Positions 82 to 13,913 are shown, counted from the stretch's first letter. The stretch: DNA of 14,269 bases from an uncultured Deinococcales bacterium (GCA_964244895.1 CAXTKV010000140.1:1-14269), one strand, 5' to 3'. Notes: a model not told the origin generated them from the letters alone. Program-made: numbers and translations.

Positions 82-110
82 CACGCTCGTGAAACGCGTC
101 AGGGACGGTG
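82..110. repeat. Degenerate copy of the dispersed palindromic element, overlapping the lpxC stop
   Basis: Minus-strand CACCGTCCctgACGCGTTTCAcga-GCGTG aligns to the copy at 7097-7128 (CACCGTCCagcACGCGTTTCAagaataGCGTG). Confidence 0.6.
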
Positions 111-944
111 CTGGCGCAACTCGAGGGCCATCGCCACGTTGGCGGCGTGGCCGTTGCGTTCGCCCACGATCACGGCCTGAAGGGGACGCCCGACCAGGTA
201 CAGGTCGCCCAGCAGATCGAGCGCCTTGTGGCGGGCGGGTTCGTCCGTGCCGCGAGGTTTCAGGCTCGGGCCTTCCTCGCCGTACACGACGGCGTTTTCG
301 GCGGTCACGCCCATGCCGCGACCCATCGCCCAGAGGCGCTCCAGGTCGCGCTCGAAACCGAAGGTGCGGGCGTCCAAGAGCGTGCGCCAGTCGTGCTGAT
401 GACCGTGCCAGACTTGCGCCGTGATGGCCGGGTGCGGGTAGCCGATGGTGACGCGCACGGCGGCGGACTGACCTGCGGGCACGGTCTCGAGGCCGACGTA
501 GCCGCCGCGCACCTCGACCGCGATCTCGGGCGGTACGAGGCGTTCGGGCAGGGTCTCGGGTTCGATGCTCGCCAGGGCCTGCGCCCAACCGAGCGCGCTG
601 CCGTCCAGGATGGGGACTTCCGGGCCGTCCACTTCGATCAGGAAGCCGCTCCAGTGGTTCATGACGTACAGGGCCGCCAGCAGGTGTTCGACCGTGGAGA
701 CGCGAACACCGCCCACGGCCAGTTCGGTGGCCAGGTTGGTGTCCACGACGTTCTCCGCGATCAGCGCGATGCGTTGCCCATCGCGCAGCAAGGCGATCGG
801 TTCGCCGGGCGCGCGGTGGAAGCGAACGCGGGTGTTCTGGCCGCTGTGAATGCCGATGCCATCTATCCAGGCGGATGCGCCCAGTCCGTCCCAGGCGTTG
901 ATGATGGAGGTGTTGTGGCCTTGAGTGGTCTGAGATGAAATCAC
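99..944 (-). CDS. lpxC: UDP-3-O-acyl-N-acetylglucosamine deacetylase
   Basis: LpxC motifs GIGIHSG, STVEHLLAAL, EVPILDGSA, ARTFGF, DEPARHKALDLLGDL and NGHAAN. GTG start with GGGGG upstream. Downstream of lpxD. Confidence 0.95.
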   Translation of the reverse strand: MISSQTTQGHNTSIINAWDGLGASAWIDGIGIHSGQNTRVRFHRAPGEPIALLRDGQRIALIAENVVDTNLATELAVGGVRVSTVEHLLAALYVMNHWSGFLIEVDGPEVPILDGSALGWAQALASIEPETLPERLVPPEIAVEVRGGYVGLETVPAGQSAAVRVTIGYPHPAITAQVWHGHQHDWRTLLDARTFGFERDLERLWAMGRGMGVTAENAVVYGEEGPSLKPRGTDEPARHKALDLLGDLYLVGRPLQAVIVGERNGHAANVAMALELRQHRP

Positions 945-972
945 GGTTCGTCCCCCGGCGTTTCAGTATGAC

Positions 973-2145
973 CTACGTGGAATGTTTACCACGTGATGGT
1001 TCGATGTGAGCCTTCATCTTCGAGTTCCCGGACTCATTTGCGTCCTGCTCGAGCCGATCAGCCTCGTGCTGCTCGAGCCGATCAGCCTCGTTCTGCTCGA
1101 GCCGATGCGCGTCTCGTCCTTCGAGCCGATCCTCGAGCGACTTCAATCGGGCTTCCAGGCGTTCCAGATCGCGGATTTTGGCCTCGAGCCGGAGCTGATC
1201 GCGGATCGGTTGCGCCGGGCTGCCCCGATACACGCCGCCCGCCGGAAGGCTCTTGCTGATGCCGGACTGCGCGGTCACGGTCGCGCCCGCCCCGATGGTG
1301 ATGTGTCCGACTGAACCGACCTGACCCCACAGCACCGCCCGATCCTCGATCGTGACGCTGCCCGCGAGTTGCACCGCGCCGATCAACAGCACGTCCTCTC
1401 CGATCGAGGCGTTGTGCGCGATCACGCAGGCCGGGCCGATCTTGGTGCGCGCCCCGATGCGGGTCTGACCGACCGTTCCGCGATCCACGACCGTATTGAC
1501 GCCGATTTCCACGTCGTCGTCCAGCGCGACCGTGCCGATGTGCGGCAAACGCACGTGATGGTGTTCCGCCGTGCGCCGGAAGCCGAAACCGTCGCTGCCG
1601 ACGACCGCACCCGATTGCACGATCACGCGATCACCGATGGTCACGCGGTGCAGGATGCTGGCGTTCGGGTGGATCAGGCAGCCCGCGCCCAAGCTGGAAT
1701 CCTCACCGATGTAGGCTCCACCCAGGATCACGCAACCGTCCCCGACGCGAACGTTTCTGGAAACCACCGCGTTCGGCCCGACGTGAACCCCTTCACCCAG
1801 GCGGGCGCTCGGGTGGATCTGGGCGCTCGGGTGAACGCCGGGTTGGCGATCCAGATCCGGAAAGAACGCGCCCAAAATGCGTTCCCAGGCGAGTTCCGGG
1901 TCGGGCACGCGTAAAAAAGACCGTCCTGGACGCGTTTCTAAATTCGCGTCCAGGACGGTGTCTCGATGAATCACGATCAGGTGGGCGGCGCTTTGCAGGC
2001 ACGCAGGCAAATACTTCGCGTGGCGCACCACGACCACATCTTCGAGTGCAGCGTCCTCGGGATCGCGCAGGGCGATCACGCTTCCGTCCTGACCCTCGAG
2101 CCTGCCGCCCAGCAGCGCGGCCAACCCGGATCGGGTCTGGGTCAC
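973..2145 (-). CDS. lpxD: UDP-3-O-(3-hydroxyacyl)glucosamine N-acyltransferase, with repetitive C-terminal tail
   Basis: Hexapeptide left-handed beta-helix repeats, GAVVGSDGFGF, PHIGTV, VDRGT, IAHN, GQVGSVGH and YRGSPAQP. GTG start. Confidence 0.95.
   Translation of the reverse strand: MTQTRSGLAALLGGRLEGQDGSVIALRDPEDAALEDVVVVRHAKYLPACLQSAAHLIVIHRDTVLDANLETRPGRSFLRVPDPELAWERILGAFFPDLDRQPGVHPSAQIHPSARLGEGVHVGPNAVVSRNVRVGDGCVILGGAYIGEDSSLGAGCLIHPNASILHRVTIGDRVIVQSGAVVGSDGFGFRRTAEHHHVRLPHIGTVALDDDVEIGVNTVVDRGTVGQTRIGARTKIGPACVIAHNASIGEDVLLIGAVQLAGSVTIEDRAVLWGQVGSVGHITIGAGATVTAQSGISKSLPAGGVYRGSPAQPIRDQLRLEAKIRDLERLEARLKSLEDRLEGRDAHRLEQNEADRLEQHEADRLEQDANESGNSKMKAHIEPSRGKHST
1041..1130. repeat. 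24-bp tandem repeat (~3.7 units) in the lpxD tail
   Basis: CTGCTCGAGCCGAT at 1045, 1069 and 1093, degenerate at 1117. Encodes DRLEQxEA units. Confidence 0.9.
1920..1959. repeat. Dispersed palindromic element inside lpxD
   Basis: Perfect 15-bp arms ACCGTCCTGGACGCG / CGCGTCCAGGACGGT with a 10-nt AT-rich loop. Confidence 0.88.
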
Positions 2146-2167
2146 AGCTTCACCGTCGAGGCGCGCA

Positions 2168-4048
2168 TTACTTTTTCACCGTCAGCTCGAGCGGGATCAG
2201 GCCCGAAACGGGTGCGCTCTGGGCCTCGAGCGCCAGCACGGTCGGCGTGCCGGAACCGTCGGCGCGCATCTCGACCAGCACGTTCTCGCCGGAGATGCGG
2301 TTGCGCAGTCGCTCGAGCAGTTCCTCGAAGCTCAATATGCCATCGAAGACATCGCGCGTGCTGCCCTCGGTGTCCGGGCGAGCGGTCAGGCCGCCGCGCA
2401 CGGTCAGGTTGAAGGCACCGTCCGGCGCACTGTCCGGGATCTTGACGGCGATCCGGCGCACCACCGGCGCGGCCCGGTACGGCTGAAGGCGCACGTTCAA
2501 CCCGATCACCTGCCCCGGTTTGACGATTTTCGATTCCGGTTCCACGCGCACCAGCCGCGTCAACGCGAACGGGCTGATCTCGAAACCGATCTTGACGGAT
2601 TTCAATCCCGGCGTCCTGAACGGGTTCTGGGAAATCAACGCGACCACCAGCGCTGCCCGGAAGGCCGCCAGCGAACCGATGTCGTTCTCGTCCGCCACGC
2701 GGTCTCGCACGGTGATCGGGTCGCGGTCGGTGAAGGACAGCGTCCAGGTGATCGAGGCCGAACCCGGTGCGGAACCTTCCAGCCCCGCCTCGAGCGCCGA
2801 AGTGGACGCGATTTCGGTCAGCGCCCCCAGGAAACTTTCGACGGGCGCGACCGAAATGCGTGTGGTGCGGGTCAAGTTGCCGTTCTTGAAGCCGATCTCG
2901 AACGGAATGAAGCCCGCGTCCGCCCCGACGGTGCCGCCGATGCCATAGGGTTTATCCGTGCTGAACGCGCCGAAAGGCTTACTGATGTTCTCTGCGATCT
3001 TGAACGGGAAATTGCTGGATGCAACGATGGCGTTGACGTAGGCCGGAGCCGCCGCGTACCGCGCCCGAGCATCGCCCAGGAACGGGTGGCCGAAGGCCAG
3101 AATGGTTTTACCGTCGATGCTGGTGATCGTGCCGACCGCGCCCACGATCAGATCGCCGGTGATCAATTGCGCGCTGACCGCCGCGCCCGGCTCGAGCTTG
3201 TATGGTCTGTCTGGGGTGCTGCCCGAAGCGCGGGTTTGCATCGGCGAGCTGATGGTTTCGATGCCCCTGGCGTTGAGCAGGCTGGTCAGTTTCAGACCCG
3301 CCCGGCCCGACAAGCCCGAGATCAGCAACGGAGCGGACAGCGGCACGGCCTGCCCGAGTTTCTCGAGCTTCGGCAAGCCATTCGCACCCGAGAAGATCGG
3401 TCGCTCGAGCCCGTAGCTGCGCGTCGGTGACTCGAGCCCGTAGCCGCGCGTCGGTCGCTCGAGCCTGGACTCGAAGATCGGTGACTCGAGGCCGTACTGG
3501 CGCGCCAGGCTGATGGTCGTGGGTTTGGGCGCGGCGCGCTGCATGACCTCGATCGGCGTGACCAGCCCGAGCTTGTGATCCGCCTCCGGGAAACCCGCCG
3601 AAATCGCGCCCGCCAGCCTGTTGTCGAAATACACCGGGCTGCCGCTCATGCCCGCCGCGATGCCGCCCGAGGCGTCGATGAACGCACCCGACGCGCGCAC
3701 CATGATGTACGGGAAGCCCTGGCCCTGTTCGGCCAGAATCTCCTCGACCTTGACGGGAAACCGCTGAATGACGTTGCCCGCACCCGCCGTCAACGCGTAG
3801 CCCTCGAGCCCCTTTTTGACATCGGAGAACGCGAAGATCTGCTGGGCGCTGGCTTGCGAAACGCCGAGACACGAGACGAGCCCGAGCGCCAACCCAACCA
3901 TAGAAGAAACCGCTCGAGGAGACCGTCCAGCACGCAAGTAATAAGATACGTGCTGGACGGTGTTTTTCGTGTCGAAACCATCTGATAGAACGCGTCGGAT
4001 GCGCGCACGAACGCCTTGAAGCTGCCCGAGCCAGGAGTTCGAGCGCAT
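2168..4048 (-). CDS. SpoIVB peptidase S55 domain-containing secreted protein
   Basis: GIAAGMSGSPVY..LAGAIS S55-type motif, GAVGTIT..LAFGHPF, and a signal-peptide-like segment MVGLALGLVSCLGVSQASA. The ATG at 4048 directly abuts the mreB stop (TAG ATG). An alternative start is the ATG at 3901. Confidence 0.8.
   Translation of the reverse strand: MRSNSWLGQLQGVRARIRRVLSDGFDTKNTVQHVSYYLRAGRSPRAVSSMVGLALGLVSCLGVSQASAQQIFAFSDVKKGLEGYALTAGAGNVIQRFPVKVEEILAEQGQGFPYIMVRASGAFIDASGGIAAGMSGSPVYFDNRLAGAISAGFPEADHKLGLVTPIEVMQRAAPKPTTISLARQYGLESPIFESRLERPTRGYGLESPTRSYGLERPIFSGANGLPKLEKLGQAVPLSAPLLISGLSGRAGLKLTSLLNARGIETISSPMQTRASGSTPDRPYKLEPGAAVSAQLITGDLIVGAVGTITSIDGKTILAFGHPFLGDARARYAAAPAYVNAIVASSNFPFKIAENISKPFGAFSTDKPYGIGGTVGADAGFIPFEIGFKNGNLTRTTRISVAPVESFLGALTEIASTSALEAGLEGSAPGSASITWTLSFTDRDPITVRDRVADENDIGSLAAFRAALVVALISQNPFRTPGLKSVKIGFEISPFALTRLVRVEPESKIVKPGQVIGLNVRLQPYRAAPVVRRIAVKIPDSAPDGAFNLTVRGGLTARPDTEGSTRDVFDGILSFEELLERLRNRISGENVLVEMRADGSGTPTVLALEAQSAPVSGLIPLELTVKK
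3397..3496. repeat. 27-bp tandem repeat (~3.7 units) in the S55 gene
   Basis: Units start with TCGGT at 3397, 3424, 3451 and 3478, each with CTCGAG (3404, 3431, 3458, 3485). Encodes YGLE(S/R)P(T/I)xx. Confidence 0.88.
3922..3961. repeat. Dispersed palindromic element in the 5' part of the S55 gene
   Basis: Perfect 13-bp arms ACCGTCCAGCACG / CGTGCTGGACGGT with a 14-nt AT-rich loop. CTCGAG at 3913. Confidence 0.88.
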
Positions 4049-5080
4049 CTAAGACCGCGAAAAGTTGTCGCTCGAGGTCAGGTGGTCCTTCAGCACGTGC
4101 TTCATGTCGAGCGCCTTGCCCGTGCCGATGGCGACGGCTTCGATGGCGTTCGAGGCGACGATCACCGGAATCCCGGTTTCCTGGCGCAGCAACTCGTCGA
4201 AGTTTCGCAATAAACTGCCGCCGCCCGTCATGATGATGCCCCGATCCACGATGTCGGAAATCAATTCCGGCGGTGTGGCCTCCAGGACGCGCTTGACGAG
4301 TTCCACGATCTTGGAGACGGGTTCCGCGAGCGCCTCGATCACGTCGGCGGTGCTCATGGTGATGGTTTTCGGCAGGCCGTTGATCAGGTCGCGACCGCGC
4401 ACCTCGGCGGTCAGTTCCTCGCTGCCGGGACGGTGCATGGCCGCACCGATCTTGACCTTGATTTCCTCGGCGGTGCGCTCACCGATCATCAGGTTTTCCT
4501 TGCGGCGGGCGTAGCGGATGATCGATTCGTCGAACTCGTTCCCGGCCAGTTTGATGCTGTCCGAAACCACGATGCCGCCCAGCGAAATCACCGCGATGTC
4601 CGTGGAGCCGCCGCCGATGTCCACGATGATCGAACCCGTGGGTTCCTCGATCTTGACGCCCACGCCGATGGCCGCCGCGAGCGGTTCCTCGATCAGGTAG
4701 ACCTTGCGCGCCTGCGCGTCGCGCAGCGCCTGGATGATCGCGCGGCGTTCGACATCGGTCACGCCGGACGGGATGCCGACCATCACGGTCGGTTTGAACA
4801 ACCAGTATCCGGTCAGGACTTTCCTCAAAAACAGTTGCAGCATCCGGCGCGTCAGCTCGAAATCGGCGATCACGCCATCCTTGATCGGTTTGACCGCGAC
4901 GATGTTGCCCGGCGTGCGCCCGATCATCCGGTAGGCTTCCTCGCCGACCGCTTTGACTTCTTTCGTTTCGCGCTGCATGGCGATCACGCTGGGTTCCTGC
5001 AAGACGATGCCTTTGCCCCTGACGTACACCAGGAAGTTCGCCGTTCCCAGGTCGATGCCGATGTCTTCTGAAAATTTCAC
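4049..5080 (-). CDS. mreB: Rod shape-determining protein MreB (343 aa; start revised from 5185 to GTG 5080)
   Basis: IGIDLGTAN, EPSVIA, PIKDGVIADF, IEEPLAAAIG, VDIGGGSTD and TGGGSLL. AGGAG RBS lies 5 nt before the GTG at 5080. Confidence 0.96.
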   Translation of the reverse strand: MKFSEDIGIDLGTANFLVYVRGKGIVLQEPSVIAMQRETKEVKAVGEEAYRMIGRTPGNIVAVKPIKDGVIADFELTRRMLQLFLRKVLTGYWLFKPTVMVGIPSGVTDVERRAIIQALRDAQARKVYLIEEPLAAAIGVGVKIEEPTGSIIVDIGGGSTDIAVISLGGIVVSDSIKLAGNEFDESIIRYARRKENLMIGERTAEEIKVKIGAAMHRPGSEELTAEVRGRDLINGLPKTITMSTADVIEALAEPVSKIVELVKRVLEATPPELISDIVDRGIIMTGGGSLLRNFDELLRQETGIPVIVASNAIEAVAIGTGKALDMKHVLKDHLTSSDNFSRS

Positions 5081-5220
5081 GCTGTCTCCTCGGGTTTTTC
5101 GTTCTTTGCGGCACTCGAGCCCCGATTTGACGGTTTCGAGCGCCGTTTCTTGAGGCGACAGTATACCGTGCGCGTTCTGAGACACGTCTAAGTCGCAAAA
5201 ATGGCGCCCTTGAACCCGTT

Positions 5221-5313
5221 AGAACCGCCCAGCACGCGGTTTTTGTGGCTCAAGAATCGGGTTTCGGCGTCCCGGACGGTCTTCTTGGTGTGCGCAAACA
5301 CCGTCTGGGACGC
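5221..5313. repeat. Three arms of the dispersed palindromic element in the mreB-rsmF divergent region
   Basis: AGAACCGCCCAGCACGC (5221-5237), GCGTCCCGGACGGT (5267-5280) and ACCGTCTGGGACGC (5300-5313). The last two are inverted with 1 mismatch. Confidence 0.75.
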
Positions 5314-5353
5314 GTATTTCTGAAGACCGCAGGCTCGCGGTAGCCTGAAGGCG

Positions 5354-6736
5354 ATGCTGCCCGATACGTTCCTGATGCGAATGAGACGGTTTCTCGGGGC
5401 CGAATTTGGCGCGTTTGAAACCGCCATGCGCGGTGAGCGCACCAACAGCCTGCGCGTGAATAGCCTCAAGCTCGAGCCCGATGAGATTGGGAACATCCTG
5501 CCCGCCAGCCTCAGCCCGATCCCGTGGTGCGATGCGGGGTTTTACGTCTCTCACGAATCGCGCGTCGGTTCCAGCCTGGCGCACGCGCTGGGGCTCATCT
5601 ACGTCCAGGAAGCCAGCGCGATGGCGGTCGCGCTGGCCCTGGCTCCGCAAGCTGGTGATCGCGTGCTGGATTTGTGCGCCGCGCCCGGCGGAAAAACCAC
5701 GCACCTCTCGCAACTGATGGGCGGCGATGGCTTGCTGGTCGCCAACGAGATCAATGCGTCCAGGGCGCGAATTCTCGAGGAAAATCTGGAGCGGCTGGGT
5801 TGTCCCGGCGTCGTCACCAACGAAGATCCGGCGCGGTTGGCGCAGGTCTGGCCCGCGTACTTCGACCGGATTCTGGTGGACGCGCCCTGCAGCGGCGAGG
5901 GCATGTTCCGCAAGAACCCCGACGCCGCCCGCGAGTGGCGACCCGAACTCGTGCTGACCTGTGCGCGCCGCCAGACGCAGATTCTGGACGCTGCCGCGAT
6001 CATGATCAAACCCGGCGGAACGCTGGTCTACTCGACCTGCACCTTTGCGCCCGAAGAGAACGAAGCCGCGGTCGAGGGGTTTCTGGAATCTCACCCGGAG
6101 TTTGAATTGCTCGAGATCGCGGGATTCTCGCCCGGACGACCCGATTGGATCGATGGCCCGAGAGATCGCTCGGGCGAACTCTCGAGAACCGCGCGGTTGT
6201 GGCCCCACCTGCTGCGCGGCGAGGGTCACTTCATCGCCAAGCTGATCAAACAGGGCGGTCAGGCGTACCGCCTGCCGCTCGAGGAAATGCATCCACCCAG
6301 CGGCAAGGCGCGCGGGCTGTGGAAAGATTTCGCCAACCGCTTCGGCCTGCCCGGTGATGGCGTCACGATCTTCCGCGACCGCATCGAGCGACTCCACCCG
6401 GAAACGCCCGCGCTGGCGGGCATCAGAACCCTGCGCGCCGGAACGAAAATCGCGGAGGTCAAAGCGGATCGCCTCGAGCCCGAGCACGCCCTGACGCACG
6501 CGCTGAAGCGCCACGCCGACGCGCCCGCGCTCGACCTCGAGCCGGACGACGCGCGGGTCGCGGCCTTCTTGCGCGGCGAATCCTTTGAGGTCACAGAAGA
6601 CGTACCGGACGGCTGGATCGCGGTTCGGGCGCACGGTTTCGGGCTGGGCTGGGGCAAACGCGTCAAACGAACCCTCAAGAACCACTACCCGAAATCCTTG
6701 CGCGGGGCGCTCAGCACGGTTCCGCTCGAGGACTGA
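5354..6736 (+). CDS. rsmF: RsmF/YebU-type 16S rRNA cytosine-C5 methyltransferase (RsmB/NOP family)
   Basis: YVQEASAM, LDLCAAPGGKTT, DAPCSGEG, YSTCTFAPEENE, RLWPH..GEGHF, and an RsmF-like C-terminal domain ending LGWGK..LKNHYPK. Confidence 0.9.
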   Translation: MLPDTFLMRMRRFLGAEFGAFETAMRGERTNSLRVNSLKLEPDEIGNILPASLSPIPWCDAGFYVSHESRVGSSLAHALGLIYVQEASAMAVALALAPQAGDRVLDLCAAPGGKTTHLSQLMGGDGLLVANEINASRARILEENLERLGCPGVVTNEDPARLAQVWPAYFDRILVDAPCSGEGMFRKNPDAAREWRPELVLTCARRQTQILDAAAIMIKPGGTLVYSTCTFAPEENEAAVEGFLESHPEFELLEIAGFSPGRPDWIDGPRDRSGELSRTARLWPHLLRGEGHFIAKLIKQGGQAYRLPLEEMHPPSGKARGLWKDFANRFGLPGDGVTIFRDRIERLHPETPALAGIRTLRAGTKIAEVKADRLEPEHALTHALKRHADAPALDLEPDDARVAAFLRGESFEVTEDVPDGWIAVRAHGFGLGWGKRVKRTLKNHYPKSLRGALSTVPLED

Positions 6737-6766
6737 GGGTCTTGATCCGAATCGAGCATCCTTGGC

Positions 6767-6838
6767 TGTCACCCTGAGTGCAGCGAAGGATCTATCGCTG
6801 CTGGTCGGCTGACTACCGCATCGGCAAGAGATCCTTCG
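6767..6838. repeat. TGTCAxCCTGAG..GCGAAGGATCT-type palindromic repeat, right arm truncated
   Basis: TGTCACCCTGAGTGCAGCGAAGGATCT (6767-6793) and AGATCCTTCG (6829-6838), a 10-bp inverted match. Confidence 0.65.
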
Positions 6839-6841
6839 ATA

Positions 6842-6980
6842 AACCTCTTGCGAACGCGGTCGGCAACGTCTCGAGGGAAGGGTAGGGACAAGCCCTACCC
6901 CTACAACACCTGTCCTGTAGGGGCAACCTCATGGTTGCCCTCGCGTCAACACGTGCCCGAGACGAGGTTCGCAAGAGGTT
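6842..6980. repeat. MITE-like element with 14-bp terminal inverted repeats enclosing a GTAG-REP doublet
   Basis: AACCTCTTGCGAAC (6842-6855) / GTTCGCAAGAGGTT (6967-6980). REPs are GTAG-GGGTAGGG-CTTGT-CCCTACCC (minus, 6904-6880) and GTAG-GGGCAACC-TCAT-GGTTGCCC (plus, 6917-6940). Confidence 0.8.
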
Positions 6981-7092
6981 CAACGCCAATTCCTTGGGAT
7001 GAGGCATGGGGCGGGTCGCATCGCGCCAGTCTCTTTCGGTACCGACGCGACCATGCCAGTCTCGAGAAGCCATCTCGAGTGCTCAGTTTCAG

Positions 7093-7142
7093 AGAACACC
7101 GTCCAGCACGCGTTTCAAGAATAGCGTGCTGGACGGTGTTCT
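7093..7142. repeat. Best-preserved dispersed palindromic element; contains the patatin stop codon
   Basis: Perfect 19-bp arms AGAACACCGTCCAGCACGC / GCGTGCTGGACGGTGTTCT with a 12-nt loop holding the TGA (7115-7117). Confidence 0.92.
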
Positions 7143-7972
7143 TCTTCTGAACGCCCGAAAAGCTCGCGTAACTGATCGAGATGATCTTCCGCGACCTTGA
7201 CGCCCGCCGCGATCGTGTCCTTGGACTTGTGAAACCCGAACAGGTTGATGTCCGGCATGCTCGGCTCGAGCACCAGGTCGGGTTTGAACAACGCCAGGCG
7301 CACGTCGCTGATGCGGGTCTGCATGATCTCGACCGCGCGGTACATGGCGCGCATGCCGGTCAGGTCGCGGTCGCGGCCCATCCAGTGATCCCACCAGCTG
7401 CGAGATTCGCGCGGCGAGACATCCAGTTGCGCCAGCGCCGTGACATCCACCGCGACCGTGATGGTCGCGCCCAGGAAACGGGTGGCGTCGGCTGGAACCT
7501 GGTTCGTGATGCCGCCATCGGCCAGCAGTTGATCGCCGACCCAGATGGGATCGATCGCGCCCGGAAAGGCGATGGTGCAGTGCAGCGCCTGGTACAGATC
7601 GCCCTCGGAGATGTAGACCAGCTTGCCGTTGACCAGGTTGGTGGCGGTCACGCAAAAAGGTTTTTGAAGCCCGCTGAAATCGGGCGGCAGGTGCTTCTTG
7701 AGGATCTTCTCGAGTTCGAGGAAGCGCAACATGTCCTTCAACGGGTTGATGTCCAGCAGCCTGTAGAGCTGCACGTCGCCCACCACGGCTTCGACCTGTT
7801 TCGAGTCCAATCCTGCCGCGATGAACGCGCCGACCAGACCGCCCATGCTGGTGCCCGCGATCACGTCCGGGTGCAAGCCCTCGCGCTCCAGGACGCGCAT
7901 CACGCCGATGTGTGCGTAACCCCGCGCACCGCCGCCACCGAGAGCCAGACCGAGTCTCGTGCGATTCGCCAT
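7115..7972 (-). CDS. Patatin-like phospholipase (NTE/RssA family); start revised to ATG 7972
   Basis: LALGGGGARGYAHIG oxyanion motif, GTSMG nucleophile elbow and DGG catalytic Asp. A TAACCT -10-like hexamer lies 7 nt before the ATG. Confidence 0.92.
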   Translation of the reverse strand: MANRTRLGLALGGGGARGYAHIGVMRVLEREGLHPDVIAGTSMGGLVGAFIAAGLDSKQVEAVVGDVQLYRLLDINPLKDMLRFLELEKILKKHLPPDFSGLQKPFCVTATNLVNGKLVYISEGDLYQALHCTIAFPGAIDPIWVGDQLLADGGITNQVPADATRFLGATITVAVDVTALAQLDVSPRESRSWWDHWMGRDRDLTGMRAMYRAVEIMQTRISDVRLALFKPDLVLEPSMPDINLFGFHKSKDTIAAGVKVAEDHLDQLRELFGRSEEEHRPARYS

Positions 7973-8049
7973 GCGAATCAGGTTACGCGAAAACTGGTTC
8001 CGAAGGCTCGAGGTGCCCCGCAGATCAGTCAAGTCTCATGACCCCAGGG

Positions 8050-8367
8050 TCAATGAACCCTCGAGATTCTGTCCCGGTATTCCTCGGGCACCAGATCCGC
8101 GAAATCCTGATGCCTGCGAATGTAAGCCGCCACGAACGGGCACATCGGCGCGACCTTCAGGTTGCGCGCCCGCGCGTCACGAAGCGCGAATTCGATCAGC
8201 GCGCTGCCGATGCCCTGCCCCTCGAGCGATTCGGGCACTTCGGTGTGCGTGAAGATCATCACCGAGTTGCTGAGCATGTACTGCGCCACCGCGATCTGAG
8301 CGCCCACGTGCGCCTCGAAGCGGTGCTGGTCGGGGTTGTCACGAATTTCCAAGGCTGGTTGGCTCAC
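8050..8367 (-). CDS. YjdJ-like small GNAT acetyltransferase (105 aa)
   Basis: C-terminal part of ORF 8050..8826: HRFE..FTHTEVPESLEGQGIGSALIEFAL..KVAPMCPFVAAYIRRH. The GTG at 8367 overlaps the upstream TGA (GTGA) and has a GGAGGA RBS. Confidence 0.9.
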   Translation of the reverse strand: MSQPALEIRDNPDQHRFEAHVGAQIAVAQYMLSNSVMIFTHTEVPESLEGQGIGSALIEFALRDARARNLKVAPMCPFVAAYIRRHQDFADLVPEEYRDRISRVH

Positions 8368-8801
8368 GATTCCTCCGGCACCGGATTGCGGTGCGTGTTG
8401 TCGCAGAAGGGCGCGTTCATTGAACGACCGCACCCGCACAGGCTCGCTCGCGTCTCGCGCACCGCACCGCTCGGCGTCGCGATGACCAGGTCGCCGCGCA
8501 GATAGATCGGGCCGTCCGGGTCCAGGCGAACGCTGGTGGGCGCGTCCGGGATTTCGTTGCCGTCCGGACGCGCGTACTGCAGCGCGCCGCTCGGGCATCT
8601 GCGAATCACGTCCGCGACGGTTTGCGCGCTCGCGAGATCGGGCTGCACCCACGGGCGTCTGCTGACATCGAAAACCTCCGGCAGGCCGCGCACGCACTCG
8701 GCGGCGTGAATGCAGCGCCGCGCGTCGAACGTCACTTCGATGCTCGGGGCGCGGTAGGTCTTGATGGGTCTGGATTCGTTTTGTTCGGGTGCGTCGCTCA
8801 A
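8364..8801 (-). CDS. YjdI-like divergent 4Fe-4S protein fused to a CDGSH-type Fe-S domain
   Basis: CIHAAECVRGLPEVFD..RPW..P..CPSGAL, then GPIYLRG and LCGCGRSMNAPFCDNTH. TTG start at 8801 with GGAGG 6 nt upstream. Confidence 0.88.
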   Translation of the reverse strand: MSDAPEQNESRPIKTYRAPSIEVTFDARRCIHAAECVRGLPEVFDVSRRPWVQPDLASAQTVADVIRRCPSGALQYARPDGNEIPDAPTSVRLDPDGPIYLRGDLVIATPSGAVRETRASLCGCGRSMNAPFCDNTHRNPVPEES

Positions 8802-8885
8802 GGAAAGCCTCCGTTCCAAAAACCACCGATGGTTCCCAGCCTAATTGTCCGGTTCCTTCTGGAAGGTGTCAGCGCCGACAAGCGA

Positions 8886-8911
8886 AACACCCCTCGAATC
8901 TCGAGGGGCGC
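8886..8911 (-). terminator. Probable intrinsic terminator of clpB
   Basis: Minus-strand hairpin GCG-CCCCTCGA GAT TCGAGGGG-TGT followed by TTCGCTT, about 30 nt after the clpB stop. Confidence 0.6.
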
Positions 8912-8941
8912 TCCGCAGCAGGAAGGGGAGAGGAGGTCGTG

Positions 8942-11506
<2,565 letters not shown>

Positions 11507-11576
11507 GGTGAACCTCCGTGATGGTGGAAATGCTCGAGACACGGGTTTCCGTGCGGCTCGAGGTTCAGTCCTAAAT

Positions 11577-11605
11577 ATCATAAGACTTGAGTGTAGTCGT
11601 GTCAA
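11577..11605 (-). promoter_or_regulatory. sigma70-type promoter of clpB
   Basis: TTGACA (11605-11600), 17 bp spacer, TATGAT (11582-11577) on the minus strand. Confidence 0.85.
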
Positions 11606-11606
11606 G
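11586..11606. promoter_or_regulatory. HAIR (HspR-associated inverted repeat) operator
   Basis: CTTGAGT-gtagtcg-TGTCAAG versus consensus CTTGAGT-N7-ACTCAAG (12/14). It overlaps the clpB -35 box and spacer. Confidence 0.8.
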
Positions 11607-11657
11607 TTAAATTATCTCACCGATTGAGCTTCGGCTGCTTCCGGGCCGAATGGTCTC

Positions 11658-11710
11658 GCGCGCTGGACGGCGTTCCCAAACGCACAAGATTGCGTTCTGG
11701 ACGGTGTTCT
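11658..11710. repeat. Two direct arms of the dispersed palindromic element upstream of clpB
   Basis: GCGCGCTGGACGGCGTTC (11658-11675) and GCGTTCTGGACGGTGTTCT (11692-11710). Confidence 0.7.
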
Positions 11711-11769
11711 CTGGATACTCGAGCCATGAGAAAACCCTCATCGGGCTCAGGCTAGCGTGAAGGCACGCC

Positions 11770-12276
11770 ATGCTCGACGACGACACGAAAGCCAAAATCC
11801 GCGCAGAGGAGGAAACAAAGGCCGCGCAACGCGCCGCCCTCGAGAGTGAGGCCGAAAAAACGCGCCTGGAACGCGAGTACCGGGCGCGCATCGCCGCAGA
11901 ACTGAAAGGCAAACGTGTCAGAAGAAACAGGTTCGTCTGGGTCGGCGGTCTCGCCCTGATCGGTGCGGTCATCGCTGGCGCGATTCTGCTGCGATCCTAT
12001 AGCCCGAAACTCGAGCCGGACGACGGTTTCGGCGGCATCCGCACCTCGGATTTGATCGAGCGCTGCAAAACCGACGTGCGCGGCAGGCTCGGCGACGGAC
12101 AGGCCGAATTCCCAGGTGACGCCGAAGCCCGCGACCAGATCAGCGCCTCGAGCGACGGCAAACGCTGGGATGGCTGGGCGATCTGCCCGAACCTGCCCGG
12201 ACGCCCTCGGGTCGAATTCTCGTGCAGCTACACGCCTTTGTCGGACACCACCGAAATCGAAATCATCAAGCCGTGA
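11770..12276 (+). CDS. Hypothetical single-pass membrane protein
   Basis: Charged coiled-coil-like N-terminus, one TM segment (FVWVGGLALIGAVIAGAILL) and a Cys-containing C-terminal domain. GC3-rich codon usage. Confidence 0.8.
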   Translation: MLDDDTKAKIRAEEETKAAQRAALESEAEKTRLEREYRARIAAELKGKRVRRNRFVWVGGLALIGAVIAGAILLRSYSPKLEPDDGFGGIRTSDLIERCKTDVRGRLGDGQAEFPGDAEARDQISASSDGKRWDGWAICPNLPGRPRVEFSCSYTPLSDTTEIEIIKP

Positions 12277-12300
12277 TGCGGCAAGCCCGAGAGGAATCCC

Positions 12301-12861
12301 ATGAAACGAACCGTCCTGGCCGCACTCGCGCTCTCAACGTTGCTCGCCGCCGCCACCGCGCAGACCTCGAGCGCACCCGCCCGCGCGCCCGTGGTCAGCG
12401 TGCCCGTGCCGCGCGACAAGATCAACCTGATCTGCAAAGACGATTATTTCAAGGTCGAACGATTGAACTTCTTCTTGCAGGACGAGAACTACGCCCAATG
12501 CACCCTGCGCGTGCCGCTGGCGCTCAAGGAACGCTGGCCCGGACGCCGCACCTTCTACGTCATCCCTCGCGTCAGCGCATCCTTGTTCGCGGGCGAGGGC
12601 GAGAAAGGCCGCTGGGTGCCGCTGACGCCGCTCGCCAATCCGGGCGGCGACCCGTTCCACCGCGCGCTCGATTCAAAGGAGTACAAGGCCGTGGAACTCG
12701 AGGGGCGCATCGGCAAGTTGACCGAACGCGCCGGGGAACTGCTGCCGAACACGGTCAGCGCGGGCGGCAAGATCACGGTCTGCGCCGCGCCCGTGTACCG
12801 AGGTGAAAGCCCCTGCACGACCTTCGATATCGCCGCGCGCTTCAAGGTCTACAAGCGCTGA
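12301..12861 (+). CDS. Hypothetical secreted protein
   Basis: Sec signal peptide MKRTVLAALALSTLLAAATA, GAGAGGA RBS and four Cys. Confidence 0.85.
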   Translation: MKRTVLAALALSTLLAAATAQTSSAPARAPVVSVPVPRDKINLICKDDYFKVERLNFFLQDENYAQCTLRVPLALKERWPGRRTFYVIPRVSASLFAGEGEKGRWVPLTPLANPGGDPFHRALDSKEYKAVELEGRIGKLTERAGELLPNTVSAGGKITVCAAPVYRGESPCTTFDIAARFKVYKR

Positions 12862-12955
12862 CTCGAGAACACCGCTCTCGCTCGCAAAATAGCACCTAAC
12901 GGGCTACTCGCGCTCAGGGACGCACGCTCGAGCACACCGCACTGGATGGTGCTCT
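12862..12955. repeat. Degenerate element copy upstream of the SIMPL gene
   Basis: CTCGAGAACACCG at 12862. 12918-12955 matches 13867-13904 at 34/38 nt. Confidence 0.75.
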
Positions 12956-13058
12956 GGCTTGTTCGGGCCAGACGCGCGACCGCGAAGCTTTAAGGTTTTG
13001 ACGCGACCTCGAGCCACGCCGTACACCCGTCTCGCACCGAAAGAGGAGCGTACCAACC

Positions 13059-13853
13059 GTGAACAGAGTCTTCCCGCAGGTGTTCTGGAGCGTCGTCGTC
13101 GTGGGTCTCACGCTGATTGCGCTCGCGCTGATCGGCATCGGCGGCGTGCAACGCCTGCGCGTCAGAACCTACACCATCGGCGTGACCGGCAGCGCCGTCA
13201 AGACCATCCGCAGCGACCTGGCCGTCTGGAGTTTCAGCGTGTCCTACACCGGTTACGACGAGTACAAATCGCTCTACCGGAAGCTCAAACCCGTACCGCA
13301 GGCGGTCGAAGGCTTTCTCAAAGCCCAGGGTCTCGACGGGGACGAAGTTCAGGTCGGCGCATCGCAGGTGATTCAGGAAGTCGAAAGCAAGGAAGTGGAC
13401 TGCAAACCCCAGGAGGACGGCTGCTACACCGTCGTCAAGGACAAGATCGCGCTGCGCTACAAGACCGTCTCGAGGCTTCGCTACACGGTCTCCAGGTCGT
13501 TCACCGTCGAGAGCGCCAAGGTGGATCGCGTCACCAAAGCCTCCAACGCGGTCGATGCGCTGTTCGACCAGAACATCGTCGTGGCGGGCAGCGAACTCAA
13601 ACTGATCTACACCAAACTGGCGGAACTGCGCCTGGAACTCGTCAAGGCCGCCTCGGAGGACGCCTTCAAACGCGCCGAATTGATCGCGCAACCCGTCGGC
13701 AAGCGCATCACGATGATCGAGGACGGTCGGTTGGGCGTGTTCCAGATCAACGCCAAGAACGATCCCTCCATCAGCGATGTCGGCAACTTCGACACGACAT
13801 CGTTGGAAAAAGACGTGCGAGCCATCGTCAACGCGACCTACCGGATCGAGTGA
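13059..13853 (+). CDS. SIMPL/DUF541-domain protein
   Basis: N-terminal TM anchor, TIGVTGSAVK.I.SDLAVW, AFKRAELIA, GVFQI and DTTSLEKDVRAIVNATYRIE. GAGGAG RBS. Confidence 0.85.
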   Translation: MNRVFPQVFWSVVVVGLTLIALALIGIGGVQRLRVRTYTIGVTGSAVKTIRSDLAVWSFSVSYTGYDEYKSLYRKLKPVPQAVEGFLKAQGLDGDEVQVGASQVIQEVESKEVDCKPQEDGCYTVVKDKIALRYKTVSRLRYTVSRSFTVESAKVDRVTKASNAVDALFDQNIVVAGSELKLIYTKLAELRLELVKAASEDAFKRAELIAQPVGKRITMIEDGRLGVFQINAKNDPSISDVGNFDTTSLEKDVRAIVNATYRIE

Positions 13854-13857
13854 AAAA

Positions 13858-13913
13858 CACCGTCCAGGACGTACGCTCGAGAACACCGTACTGGACGGTG
13901 CTCTCGAGCGTAC
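13858..13913. repeat. Compound element copy between the SIMPL gene and moaC
   Basis: CACCGTCCAGGACG / CGTACTGGACGGTG (13858-13900), overlapping GTACGCTCGAGAACACCGT / ACGGTGCTCTCGAGCGTAC (13871-13913). Each pair has 1 mismatch. Confidence 0.85.

What the first reader, a model, noticed from the sequence alone, without database searches (positions are those of the whole stretch)
82..13913. Dense family of ~40-bp palindromic mini-elements with CTCGAG-linked ends (about 8 loci in 14 kb)
Seen: copies or arms at 82-110, 1920-1959, 3922-3961, 5221-5313, 7093-7142, 11658-11710, 12862-12955 and 13858-13913. The rough consensus is (CTCG)AGAACACCGTCCAG(C/G)ACGC-loop-GCGT(G/C)CTGGACGGTGTTCT(CGAG). The ACCG-to-CGGT span is exactly 40 nt in three intact copies and 41 nt in a fourth. 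Loops differ, and arms show paired changes (TCCTGGACG/CGTCCAGGA in lpxD versus TCCAGCACG/CGTGCTGGA elsewhere), so structure and length are conserved more than sequence. Several ends abut CTCGAG (3913, 12862, 13876, 13903) or CTCGA (1962). It lacks the GTAG/CGTC lead of classical REPs. Inference: a non-autonomous mobile palindrome that targets or carries the iterated hexamer, comparable to small dispersed repeats that insert in cyanobacterial HIP1 sites. This may be one coupled, undescribed system with the CTCGAG iteration.
Basis: partly seen in the sequence, partly recalled or inferred. Interest (0 to 1): 0.85.

Follow-up and report, generated by a model that had tools for sequence, protein, structure and literature searches.

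The report
Dense REP-like hairpin repeat family
The window holds copies of a real hairpin-forming DNA repeat found at about 3,000 places in this genome, mostly just after stop codons; it resembles the REP elements of other bacteria, likely no longer moves, and its link to the over-abundant word CTCGAG is likely a side effect, not one coupled system.

Summary
The repeat family is real. A 19-nt arm (AGAACACCGTCCAGCACGC) occurs 5,606 times in the 5.12-Mb assembly, against 73 in a reversed-sequence control. The arms fall at 3,011 loci. The basic unit is a 25-nt palindrome, mostly paired as 50- or 60-nt inverted doublets. Copies lie within about 20 nt of stop codons and occupy 40-66% of intergenic regions. 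All 738 50-nt copies differ: arm cores are 93-98% conserved, while loops are AT-rich and variable.

The architecture is REP/REPIN-like. However, no Y1 (RAYT), TnpB or IS110 gene was found. No GTAG tag or unpaired CGTC tag was seen. In a roughly 90%-identical relative, 13 of 13 bridged loci were filled.

CTCGAG abuts 12.5% of arms. But all 18 sister genomes have the CTCGAG excess without the element, and elements hold only 5% of CTCGAG sites. The "one coupled system" reading is therefore weak.

One result was unexpected. Hundreds of arms lie inside genes (12-70x a codon-shuffle null), and 40 of 52 testable ones show no length change against orthologues. They were written in place, not inserted.

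The scan already reported this family on other DNA of this genome (e1-2224752).

The parts
96..114 (-). Weak solo arm overlapping the stop codon of lpxC (99-101)
   Evidence: 12.3 bits. LpxC ORF 99-944(-), PF03331.
280..298 (-). Weak arm-like match inside lpxC
   Evidence: 13.2 bits. May be chance or an in-place arm. Not followed up.
1915..1964 (.). 50-nt inverted doublet lying in frame inside lpxD (residues 61-77, RDTVLDANLETRPGRSF)
   Evidence: Arms 24.8 and 22.4 bits. Translation. RNA fold -32.1 kcal/mol, z -8.7. The G000 loop is 3-8 aa longer than in 10 orthologues. Conserved without gaps in the run-X1 relative.
2412..2430 (+). Solo arm-like match inside the S55 peptidase gene, in place
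   Evidence: 14.9 bits. Gap-free orthologous alignment (row C140_2412).
3917..3966 (.). 50-nt doublet between mreB (stop at 4049) and the likely start of the S55 peptidase gene (about 3902). CTCGAG at 3913 is in register.
   Evidence: Arms 25.1 and 28.0 bits. CTCGAG position. Fold -30.3 kcal/mol, z -7.2.
5219..5313 (.). Compound locus in the divergent mreB/rsmF spacer: decayed arm 5219-5237, arm 5267-5285(-), arm 5295-5313(+)
   Evidence: 8.9, 25.7 and 21.8 bits. The last two fold together.
7093..7142 (.). Consensus 50-nt doublet. The stop codon of the patatin-like gene (7115-7117) lies in its loop, and the right arm encodes the last residues.
   Evidence: Both arms 32.0 bits. ORF 7115-8032(-), PF01734. 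Fold -40.3 kcal/mol, z -9.7.
11658..11710 (-). Two arms in direct order, 15 nt apart, upstream of clpB
   Evidence: 20.6 and 28.4 bits. No strong hairpin (z -0.7). A promoter-like site for clpB lies at 11605-11577.
12862..12955 (.). Decayed remnant starting right after the stop codon at 12859-12861, with CTCGAG at 12862 and 12927
   Evidence: Best arm 11.5 bits at 12937-12955. Window 12861-12997 (135 nt) is 91 nt in the run-X1 relative.
13854..13904 (.). Composite 50-nt-class locus right after the stop codon of the SIMPL gene (13851-13853): arm, then a 25-nt mini-palindrome. CTCGAG at 13876 and 13903.
   Evidence: 27.3, 18.9 and 22.6 bits. Fold -31.7 kcal/mol, z -4.9. Conserved in the run-X1 relative, with 1 gap in 1,273 nt.

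Best explanation
This is a very dense family of REP/REPIN-like palindromic repeats (a 25-nt unit, mostly as 50- and 60-nt inverted doublets) that sits just after stop codons. It likely spread in the ancestor of this genus through an enzyme acting in trans that was not found here. It is likely fixed and vertically inherited now. Its hairpins would serve as two-way 3'-end RNA structures (terminator or mRNA-stabiliser type).

Shown:
- the census and the anatomy;
- the position next to stop codons;
- the restriction to this lineage;
- stability against a relative;
- no Y1, TnpB or IS110 gene found in the 91%-complete assembly;
- independence of the CTCGAG excess from the element.

Inferred:
- past spread by insertion (from the discrete 50/60-nt sizes and the AT-rich loops with a residual consensus);
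- maintenance of the arms by selection or short-patch conversion;
- the RNA-level function.

The CTCGAG at the element ends is most simply the genome-wide CTCGAG bias acting on an element end that reads CGAG.
For: **Census**
- 5,606 arms against 73 in the control, at 3,011 loci.
- Locus types: 742 of +(12)-, 217 of +(22)-, 176 lone 25-nt palindromes, 323 composites with 16/17-nt gaps, 124 composites with 6/7-nt gaps, and 1,014 solo arms.

**REPIN-like traits**
- Inverted doublets dominate.
- The spacer has a fixed length but a variable sequence: 709 distinct loops in 738 copies.
- There is partial compensatory covariation: odds ratios 3.2 and 3.3, P about 1e-13.
- Solo arms are weaker than doublet arms (median 16.7 against 22.1 bits, P = 2e-89).
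- 439 of 977 solo arms keep a decayed partner at the expected offset, against 7 on the control side.
- The same traits are described for REPINs in passages of PMC3116915.

**Position**
- 65% of loci are purely intergenic, against 16% of random placements.
- The distance from stop codon to element peaks at -5 to +20 nt.
- 272 of 4,165 predicted genes end inside or at a multi-arm element.
- Occupancy is 394 of 599 convergent, 1,044 of 1,983 tandem and 227 of 570 divergent spacers.
- Canonical hairpin-plus-T terminators are scarce: 215 of 2,586 element-free 3' ends against 134 in the antisense control, and 37 of 1,324 where an element is present.
- The window has 9 terminator-like sites against 13.3 in shuffles.
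- Folds reach -30 to -40 kcal/mol with z -7 to -10.

**Insertion origin of intergenic copies**
- Loop GC is 31%, against 57% in the flanks.
- The loop keeps a directional consensus: 6.2 bits against 1.6 in the control for 50-nt copies, and 11.8 against 1.7 for 60-nt copies.

**Old and static**
- 13 of 13 bridged loci are filled in the relative.
- A different 145-nt inverted-repeat family lies in a stretch that is 271 nt shorter in the same relative. This shows that length differences of this kind are visible in the comparison.
Against: - No transposase partner was found.
- No empty site or target duplication was seen.
- No RNA data exist, so the function is untested.
- Only 224 of 1,324 elements next to gene ends also have a T-rich tail.
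- The arm core is conserved as sequence (93-98% per position), far beyond what a hairpin alone needs. That points to a sequence-specific protein or to conversion.
- 40 of 52 testable arms inside genes show no length change against orthologues.
- In pheT and miaA the spacer between the two arms is the native coding sequence. These copies did not arise by insertion.
- The gene calls come from my own crude caller, so position counts are approximate.
Confidence: 0.5

Rival explanations
1. The arms are a long iterated motif written in place. A lineage-specific, sequence-directed process overwrites 12-19-nt patches with the arm sequence at fixed spacings. Candidates are short-patch ectopic gene conversion from the thousands of copies, or template switching between quasi-palindromic arms. 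Most copies would then never have transposed. This would be a long-motif counterpart of HIP1, which is reported to spread by substitutions.
For: - Arms in 3.17 Mb of deep coding sequence, against 24-34, 12-14 and 2-3 after codon shuffling: 367 at 14 bits or more, 267 at 16 or more, 196 at 18 or more.
- 867 kb of sister-genus DNA holds 7, 2 and 0 at those thresholds.
- 40 of 52 arms spanned by an orthologous alignment have no gap within the arm plus or minus 6 nt.
- These arms are more diverged than their surroundings. Nucleotide identity is 55.5% against 60.4% (P = 0.009). Amino-acid identity is 45.1% against 56.7% (P = 0.0005). The arm is below its flanks in 29 of 40 loci.
- In pheT, four codons next to a CTCGAG were rewritten, and the loop THLKVLKID is native. 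In miaA, two arms were written with no length change.
- Every one of the 738 50-nt copies is unique.
- Template switching that homogenises inverted-repeat arms and causes multinucleotide changes is described in the abstracts of PMC8604942 and PMC7202029 (search listing).
Against: - Intergenic loops are not like local DNA (31% against 57% GC) and keep a consensus.
- Sizes are discrete at 50 and 60 nt.
- Two genes (nuoG and cheA) carry the same loop peptide PSSTQIKNTV, as expected for an imported unit.
- metH, A2M and lpxD show added length: +19, +9 to +22, and +3 to +8 aa.
- Arms in genes favour the frame AAC ACC GTC CAG, which is made of GC3-rich codons (235 of 400). Prior likeness plus a few substitutions may therefore explain part of the excess.
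- No enzyme is known or was found for such writing.
Confidence: 0.2
2. The arms are double-stranded DNA binding sites for a lineage-specific dimeric protein of the nucleoid, gyrase or BIME type. The fixed 12- or 22-nt spacers would place the two half-sites on one face of the helix. The hairpin potential would be incidental.
For: - The arm core is conserved as sequence, not merely as pairs.
- The two spacer classes differ by 10 nt, about one helical turn.
- There is no orientation bias relative to transcription: 165 against 153.
- Copies also occupy 40% of divergent spacers.
- An earlier scan note (e1-9586728, unchecked) proposes docking sites in this genome.
Against: - Compensatory covariation at positions 12 and 14 favours pairing.
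- The sharp placement after stop codons, and the preference for convergent over divergent spacers (66% against 40%), fit a role at transcript ends better.
- No binding protein was identified.
Confidence: 0.12
3. One reading: an active non-autonomous mobile palindrome that targets CTCGAG sites and forms one system with the hexamer's iteration.
For: - In-register CTCGAG stands at 701 of 5,592 arms.
- CTCGAG pairs lie in the 60-nt loops: 110 starts at offsets 23, 24, 30 and 31 in 217 copies.
Against: - The CTCGAG excess is present in 18 of 18 sister genomes that lack the element.
- Elements hold only 5% of CTCGAG sites.
- The conditional share at element ends (54%) is near the genome's own 40-47.5%.
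- Both ends carry CTCGAG in 7 of 738 copies, against 16.4 expected under independence (P = 0.003).
- 13 of 13 loci are shared with a relative.
- There are no empty sites and no transposase.
- In orthologues, CTCGAG is not enriched at the places where G000 has in-gene arms: 9 starts in 35 loci, against a background of 0.0065 per position.
Confidence: 0.05

Closest known systems
REPINs (REP doublets forming hairpins) with their RAYT transposases; Bertels & Rainey 2011, PMC3116915 (abstract and passages read)
   Same: - Short palindromic units are mostly paired as inverted doublets.
- The spacer is less conserved than the arms but has a fixed length.
- Compensatory changes occur.
- Singlets are more decayed than doublets.
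- The location is extragenic.
- Inheritance is vertical and lineage-specific.
   Different: - No RAYT or other Y1 gene was found.
- There is no GTAG.
- There is no master sequence: 738 of 738 copies are unique.
- There is no sign of excision or gain.
- The doublets are far shorter (50-60 nt; the paper's simulation used doublets of 71 and 110 bp).
- Density is about one locus per 1.7 kb.
GTAG- and CGTC-tagged REP superfamilies; Di Nocera et al. 2013, PMC3733652 (abstract and passages read)
   Same: - Copies lie downstream of genes, between tandem and convergent ORFs.
- Head-to-head dimers predominate.
- Intragenic units occur in known genes, including replication and repair genes (here ftsK, recQ and dnaX).
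- CGTC REPs likewise lack a dedicated transposase.
   Different: - That paper's CGTC REPs have an unpaired CGTC tag, stems of 8-9 bp, loops of 4-5 nt and a 3-nt tail.
- Here CGTC lies inside a 12- to 19-bp stem, and there is no tail.
- The paper treats intragenic copies as insertions. Here most testable in-gene arms show no length change.
Rickettsia palindromic elements; passage of the review PMC10969869
   Same: Palindromic repeats lie in frame inside unrelated housekeeping genes and add or replace a recurrent peptide. Here the peptides are NTVQDGVL, TPSxT and RPGR.
   Different: - RPEs are about 150 bp, and nearly half of them sit in ORFs.
- Here only 37 of 1,997 multi-arm loci are deep inside predicted genes.
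- Several of these are rewritten native sequence, not inserts.
HIP1 (GCGATCGC) of cyanobacteria; PMC5861425 (abstract and passages) and PMC4390886 (passages). The title of Robinson et al. 1997, 'HIP1 propagates ... via nucleotide substitutions', was seen only in a reference list.
   Same: - CTCGAG here is a hyper-abundant short palindrome shared by a whole family of genomes.
- The idea that an iterated motif can spread by substitution rather than transposition matches the in-place arms.
   Different: - HIP1 is 8 nt, whereas the arm is 19-25 nt.
- CTCGAG is not mentioned in either paper (0 occurrences).
- No methyltransferase link was tested here.
E. coli REP/BIME elements, and REPs within 15 nt of stop codons that lower upstream gene expression (Liang, Rudd & Deutscher 2015). 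Recalled only: the paper was not held.
   Same: Hairpin repeats lie right after stop codons. Several roles have been proposed, including mRNA stability, termination and protein binding.
   Different: Nothing was tested here at the RNA or protein level. The sequences are unrelated.

Membership tests
REP/REPIN-RAYT system | High-copy short imperfect palindromes, mainly extragenic | tested here: met
   5,606 arms against 73 in the control. 65% of 3,011 loci are purely intergenic, against 16% of random placements.
REP/REPIN-RAYT system | Inverted doublets forming a hairpin, with a less conserved spacer of set length and compensatory changes (PMC3116915) | tested here: met
   Locus types. 709 distinct loops in 738 copies. 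Covariation odds ratios 3.2 and 3.3. Folds with z -7 to -10.
REP/REPIN-RAYT system | Doublets better conserved than singlets | tested here: met
   Median 22.1 against 16.7 bits, P = 2e-89. 439 of 977 solo arms have a decayed partner.
REP/REPIN-RAYT system | Cognate single-copy Y1 transposase (RAYT), usually flanked by its REPs | tested here: not met
   No PF01797 match in the 91.4%-complete assembly. The same search rang in 6 of 14 control genomes. The gene could lie in the unassembled part.
REP/REPIN-RAYT system | Conserved GTAG at one end, the site cleaved by RAYT (PMC3733652 passages) | tested here: not met
   The arm and flank consensus has no GTAG.
REP/REPIN-RAYT system | Evidence of mobility (excision reads, filled/empty sites) | tested here: not met
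   No intragenomic empty site among 1,997 multi-arm loci. 13 of 13 bridged loci are filled in a 90-94%-identical relative. Population reads of the organism itself were not available.
CGTC-tagged REP superfamily (PMC3733652) | Unpaired CGTC tag at one end, stem 8-9 bp, loop 4-5 nt, 3-nt tail | tested here: not met
   CGTC lies inside the paired stem (ACCGTCC). The stem is 12 bp in the 25-nt unit and 19 bp in doublets. Loops are 1-3, 12 or 22 nt. No tail was seen.
MITE | Terminal inverted repeats plus target-site duplication, and a related autonomous IS | tested here: not met
   The flank consensus shows no direct repeat. Both ends carry CTCGAG in 7 of 738 copies. No related IS was found among the three transposase families searched. 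Other DDE families were not searched.
Rickettsia-palindromic-element-like in-frame inserts | Element inserted in frame in ORFs, adding a conserved peptide | tested here: inconclusive
   37 multi-arm copies lie in frame. 19 of 20 hosts tested have Pfam domains. Added length is seen in metH, A2M and lpxD, but none in pheT and miaA, and 0 to +3 aa in nuoG.
Intrinsic (Rho-independent) terminator | GC-rich hairpin directly followed by a U tract, at gene 3' ends | tested here: inconclusive
   The position fits. The hairpin is strong. A T-rich tail is present in only 224 of 1,324 copies. No RNA data.
HIP-type iterated palindrome (for CTCGAG itself) | Short palindrome many-fold over-represented across a whole clade | tested here: met
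   64 in the window against 7.6 expected. It is the commonest hexamer, at 21,883 copies. The 18 sister genomes carry 12,028-35,442 each. A link to a methyltransferase was not tested.

The most novel reading that the evidence does not exclude
The arm is not (or is no longer) a transposing element. It is a 19-25-nt iterated motif that a lineage-specific, sequence-directed process writes into existing DNA at fixed spacings, in genes as well as between them. The process would be short-patch conversion or template switching seeded by a protein that recognises the arm. If so, this genome shows de novo birth of REP-type repeats by overwriting rather than insertion. It would run alongside, but separately from, the family-wide CTCGAG drive.
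Probability: 0.2. Interest if true: 0.8.

Novelty: new variant of a known kind. Interest (0 to 1): 0.5.

Why it matters
How REP-type repeats arise, spread and persist is still open. One of the papers read here ends by asking whether de novo formation still occurs (PMC3733652).

This genome offers an extreme case:
- one locus per 1.7 kb;
- an element in about half of all intergenic spacers;
- no RAYT found;
- no turnover against a 90%-identical relative;
- hundreds of arms written into coding sequence without any length change.

If the hairpins are the organism's usual transcript-end signal, gene-end annotation and expression models for this uncultured lineage depend on them.

The work also separates two things that look coupled in a single window. 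The CTCGAG excess is a trait of the whole family of genomes. The hairpin repeat is a later, genus-level addition.

Tried and rejected
- **Rfam:** 0 matches in the window at gathering scores.
- **RNA evidence:** no RNA holder listed, so expression and transcript ends could not be examined.
- **Metagenome contigs searched with the patatin-like protein:** the best relatives are only 50-55% identical, so they were no use for empty sites.
- **Arm pattern over species-representative genomes:** It says little about absence elsewhere.
- **Intragenomic empty sites:** 3 candidates were found, and none was empty. Two are local repeats and one is a duplicated filled site.
- **Does the CTCGAG end go with one loop orientation?** No: 107 left against 113 right.
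- **Is the shortage of copies with CTCGAG at both ends explained by stop codons at one end?** Only partly. With neither end near a stop codon, 8 copies have both, against 14.8 expected. This remains unexplained.
- **Orientation relative to transcription:** none for 50-nt copies (165 against 153). Composites are weakly biased (115 against 150, P = 0.04).
- **Do in-gene arms arise at ancestral CTCGAG (Leu-Glu) sites?** I thought so from a few alignments. The count does not support it: 9 CTCGAG starts in 35 loci, which is background level.
- **CTCGAG spacing:** it shows codon periodicity and a spike at 7 nt (115 pairs), but no spacing that defines the element.
- **RNA ligase host gene:** no orthologue was found in five relatives.
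- **Liang et al. 2015:** not held, so it is cited from memory only.
- **Phylum:** the label Deinococcota comes from earlier scan notes and was not checked here.
- **Not searched:** DDE-type transposase families, Vsr and methyltransferases.

Full report
**The observation**

The window is contig C140 of a 5.12-Mb draft genome with 328 contigs, 62.7% GC and 91% completeness.

I built a 19-nt arm matrix from the commonest size class. Its consensus, AGAACACCGTCCAGCACGC, is an exact stretch of the window at 7093-7111. The matrix finds 5,606 arms at 12 bits or more in the genome, against 73 in reversed sequence. At 20 bits or more the counts are 3,190 against 1.

In the window, six of the eight reported places are strong. 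Two are weak or decayed: 96-114 and 12862-12955.

**Anatomy**

The arms cluster into 3,011 loci:
- 742 are two converging arms with a 12-nt spacer (50 nt in all).
- 217 have a 22-nt spacer (60 nt).
- 176 are lone 25-nt perfect-type palindromes (AGAACACCGTCC-n-GGACGGTGTTCT). Here the two arm matches overlap by 13 nt.
- 447 are composites of such a mini-palindrome plus a further arm.
- 1,014 are solo arms.

The arm is itself close to the mini-palindrome. The family is therefore best described as a 25-nt unit that mostly occurs as head-to-head doublets with 0 or 10 nt between the units.

Solo arms are weaker than doublet arms. 439 of 977 keep a decayed partner at the expected offset, against 7 on the control side.

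No two of the 738 50-nt copies are identical. Arm core positions are 93-98% conserved. There are 709 distinct loops. The loops are nonetheless not random. Their GC is 31%, against 57% in the flanks. They also keep a weak directional consensus, ATTTTTAAATTC. The 60-nt loops carry TTTCTCGAGnCTCRARA.

Positions 12 and 14 of the arm covary with their partners, with odds ratios of about 3 and P of about 1e-13. About a quarter of copies are mismatched there.

Representative copies fold at -30 to -40 kcal/mol, with z scores of -7 to -10.

**Position**

I wrote a crude codon-usage gene caller. It gives 4,165 genes and reproduces 12 of the window's genes but misses the small acetyltransferase. With it:
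- 65% of loci are purely intergenic, against 16% of random placements.
- The near edge of an element lies overwhelmingly -5 to +20 nt from the end of a stop codon.
- 272 genes end inside or at an element.
- In the window this holds for lpxC, the patatin-like gene, the ORF ending at 12861 and the SIMPL gene.
- Elements occupy 66% of convergent, 53% of tandem and 40% of divergent spacers.
- They show no orientation bias to transcription.
- Canonical hairpin-plus-T terminators are barely above control in this genome, and rarer still where an element is present.

**Relatives**

The arm pattern occurs 842 times here. It occurs 0-2 times in each of 30 relatives, 18 of which belong to the same family but to other genera.

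I sampled 400, 350 and 117 kb from three sister genera and looked for repeats de novo. No comparable hairpin family appeared. One genome has an unrelated repeat that looks like an IS end.

CTCGAG behaves differently. It is hugely abundant in all 18 family members. Its reverse, GAGCTC, is nearly absent from them.

One public run (X1) holds a relative that is 90-94% identical. Its contigs bridge 13 element loci: 4 in the window and 9 in a second 20-kb stretch of G000. None of the 13 shows a length difference large enough for the element to be absent. The copy inside lpxD is among them. Many contigs end at arms, so other loci could not be judged.

The same comparison does show a 271-nt shorter stretch where the window carries a copy of a different 145-nt family with 19-nt terminal inverted repeats. 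Length differences of that kind are therefore visible in this comparison.

No empty site exists within the genome. No Y1, TnpB-type or IS110 gene was found.

**The CTCGAG link**

CTCGAG overlaps the arm's first AG in 701 of 5,592 arms. At most other offsets the count is about 30-70. In the 50-nt class each end has CTCGAG in about 15% of copies. Both ends have it in only 7 of 738, against 16.4 expected.

The element end reads (C)nCGAG. Among ends that read CGAG, 54% read CTCGAG. Genome-wide, 40% of all NNCGAG are already CTCGAG, and 47.5% in intergenic DNA.

Elements cover 2.9% of the genome and hold 5.0% of CTCGAG sites.

Together with the family-wide distribution, this makes the hexamer excess independent of the element. 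The element's CTCGAG caps look largely like a product of the same bias. It remains possible that the founder copy carried CTCGAG at its unit ends.

**Copies in genes**

37 multi-arm loci lie deep inside predicted genes. All are in frame and encode recurrent peptides (NTVQDGVL, TPSxT, RPGR).

19 of 20 hosts tested have clear Pfam domains. They include FtsK, PheT, RecQ, MetH, DnaX, CheA, MiaA and NuoG.

Alignment with orthologues gave a split result:
- metH (+19 aa), A2M (+9 to +22) and lpxD (+3 to +8) carry extra length in variable linkers.
- pheT and miaA show no length change at all. The sequence between their arms is the native, conserved coding sequence.
- nuoG shows 0 to +3 aa.

I widened the test. 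There are 400 arms of 14 bits or more deep in genes, and 52 are spanned by an orthologous alignment in the 1.78 Mb of relatives' DNA that I held. Of these, 40 have no gap, and they are more diverged from the orthologue than their surroundings.

Arms in coding sequence exceed a codon-shuffle null 12-fold at 14 bits or more and about 70-fold at 18 bits or more. They are almost absent from sister-genus DNA.

Many arms were therefore written in place.

They favour the frame in which the arm reads as GC3-rich codons. So prior likeness plays a part.

**Reading**

The best-supported account is an old, now static, REP/REPIN-like family. It was founded by insertion in the genus ancestor and is retained at gene ends as a hairpin.

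The sequence-level conservation of the arms and the in-place arms call for an extra process. That process could be short-patch conversion or template switching, or a sequence-specific protein. It may be more important than I credit.

Intragenic REPs and transposase-less REP families are already in print (PMC3733652). In-place origin is not described in the passages I read.

My two literature searches on CTCGAG and iterated palindromes found no paper describing a CTCGAG-rich bacterial lineage. Two HIP1 papers that I checked do not contain the word.

The scan had already reported this family on another piece of the same genome (e1-2224752). My tests agree with that note's main verdict.

Noticed in passing
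window 6839-6983 (within 6730-7124): This is a second, unrelated repeat family. It is about 145 nt long with 19-nt terminal inverted repeats (CGATAAACCTCTTGCGAAC / GTTCGCAAGAGGTTCAACG). At least 39 other copies lie in the genome at 77-90% identity (40 of 110 candidates were scored, one being the query itself). The stretch 6730-7124 is 394 nt here but 123 nt in the run-X1 relative, so this region differs between near relatives.
   Followed up: partly
window 1041-1131 and 3397-3504: These are tandem repeats inside genes, each unit carrying one CTCGAG. A 24-nt period gives LpxD a C-terminal tail (RLEQxEAD repeats) that the orthologues lack. A 27-nt period lies in the S55 peptidase gene.
   Followed up: partly
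whole genomes G000-G018: GAGCTC, the reverse of CTCGAG, is almost absent from the 18 sister genomes (0-161 copies) but occurs 568 times in G000. G000 also has the lowest CTCGAG density of the family: 4.3 per kb, against about 4.6-6.8 from rounded genome sizes.
   Followed up: no
loci L093-L112 (G006, 1.0-1.4 Mb): The sister genome G006 has its own dispersed repeat. Its two conserved ends read ...GCCGAACTCAGTAA and ...GCCGTTATCAGTAA. It looks like the ends of an insertion sequence or its miniature derivative, and is unrelated to the hairpin family.
   Followed up: no
window 99-2145: lpxC and lpxD (lipid A synthesis) stand side by side and are conserved across the family. Earlier scan notes place this genome in Deinococcota, which I did not check. 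If that is right, these lipid A genes may deserve a look, since by my recollection Deinococcus itself lacks lipopolysaccharide.
   Followed up: no
genome-wide, 50-nt class: CTCGAG at both ends of one element is rarer than independence predicts (7 against 16.4 of 738). The shortage persists when neither end is near a stop codon (8 against 14.8 of 1,020). It is unexplained.
   Followed up: partly
window 11577-11605 (-): A near-consensus promoter-like site (TTGACA, 17 nt, TATGAT) lies upstream of clpB, next to the arm pair at 11658-11710.
   Followed up: no
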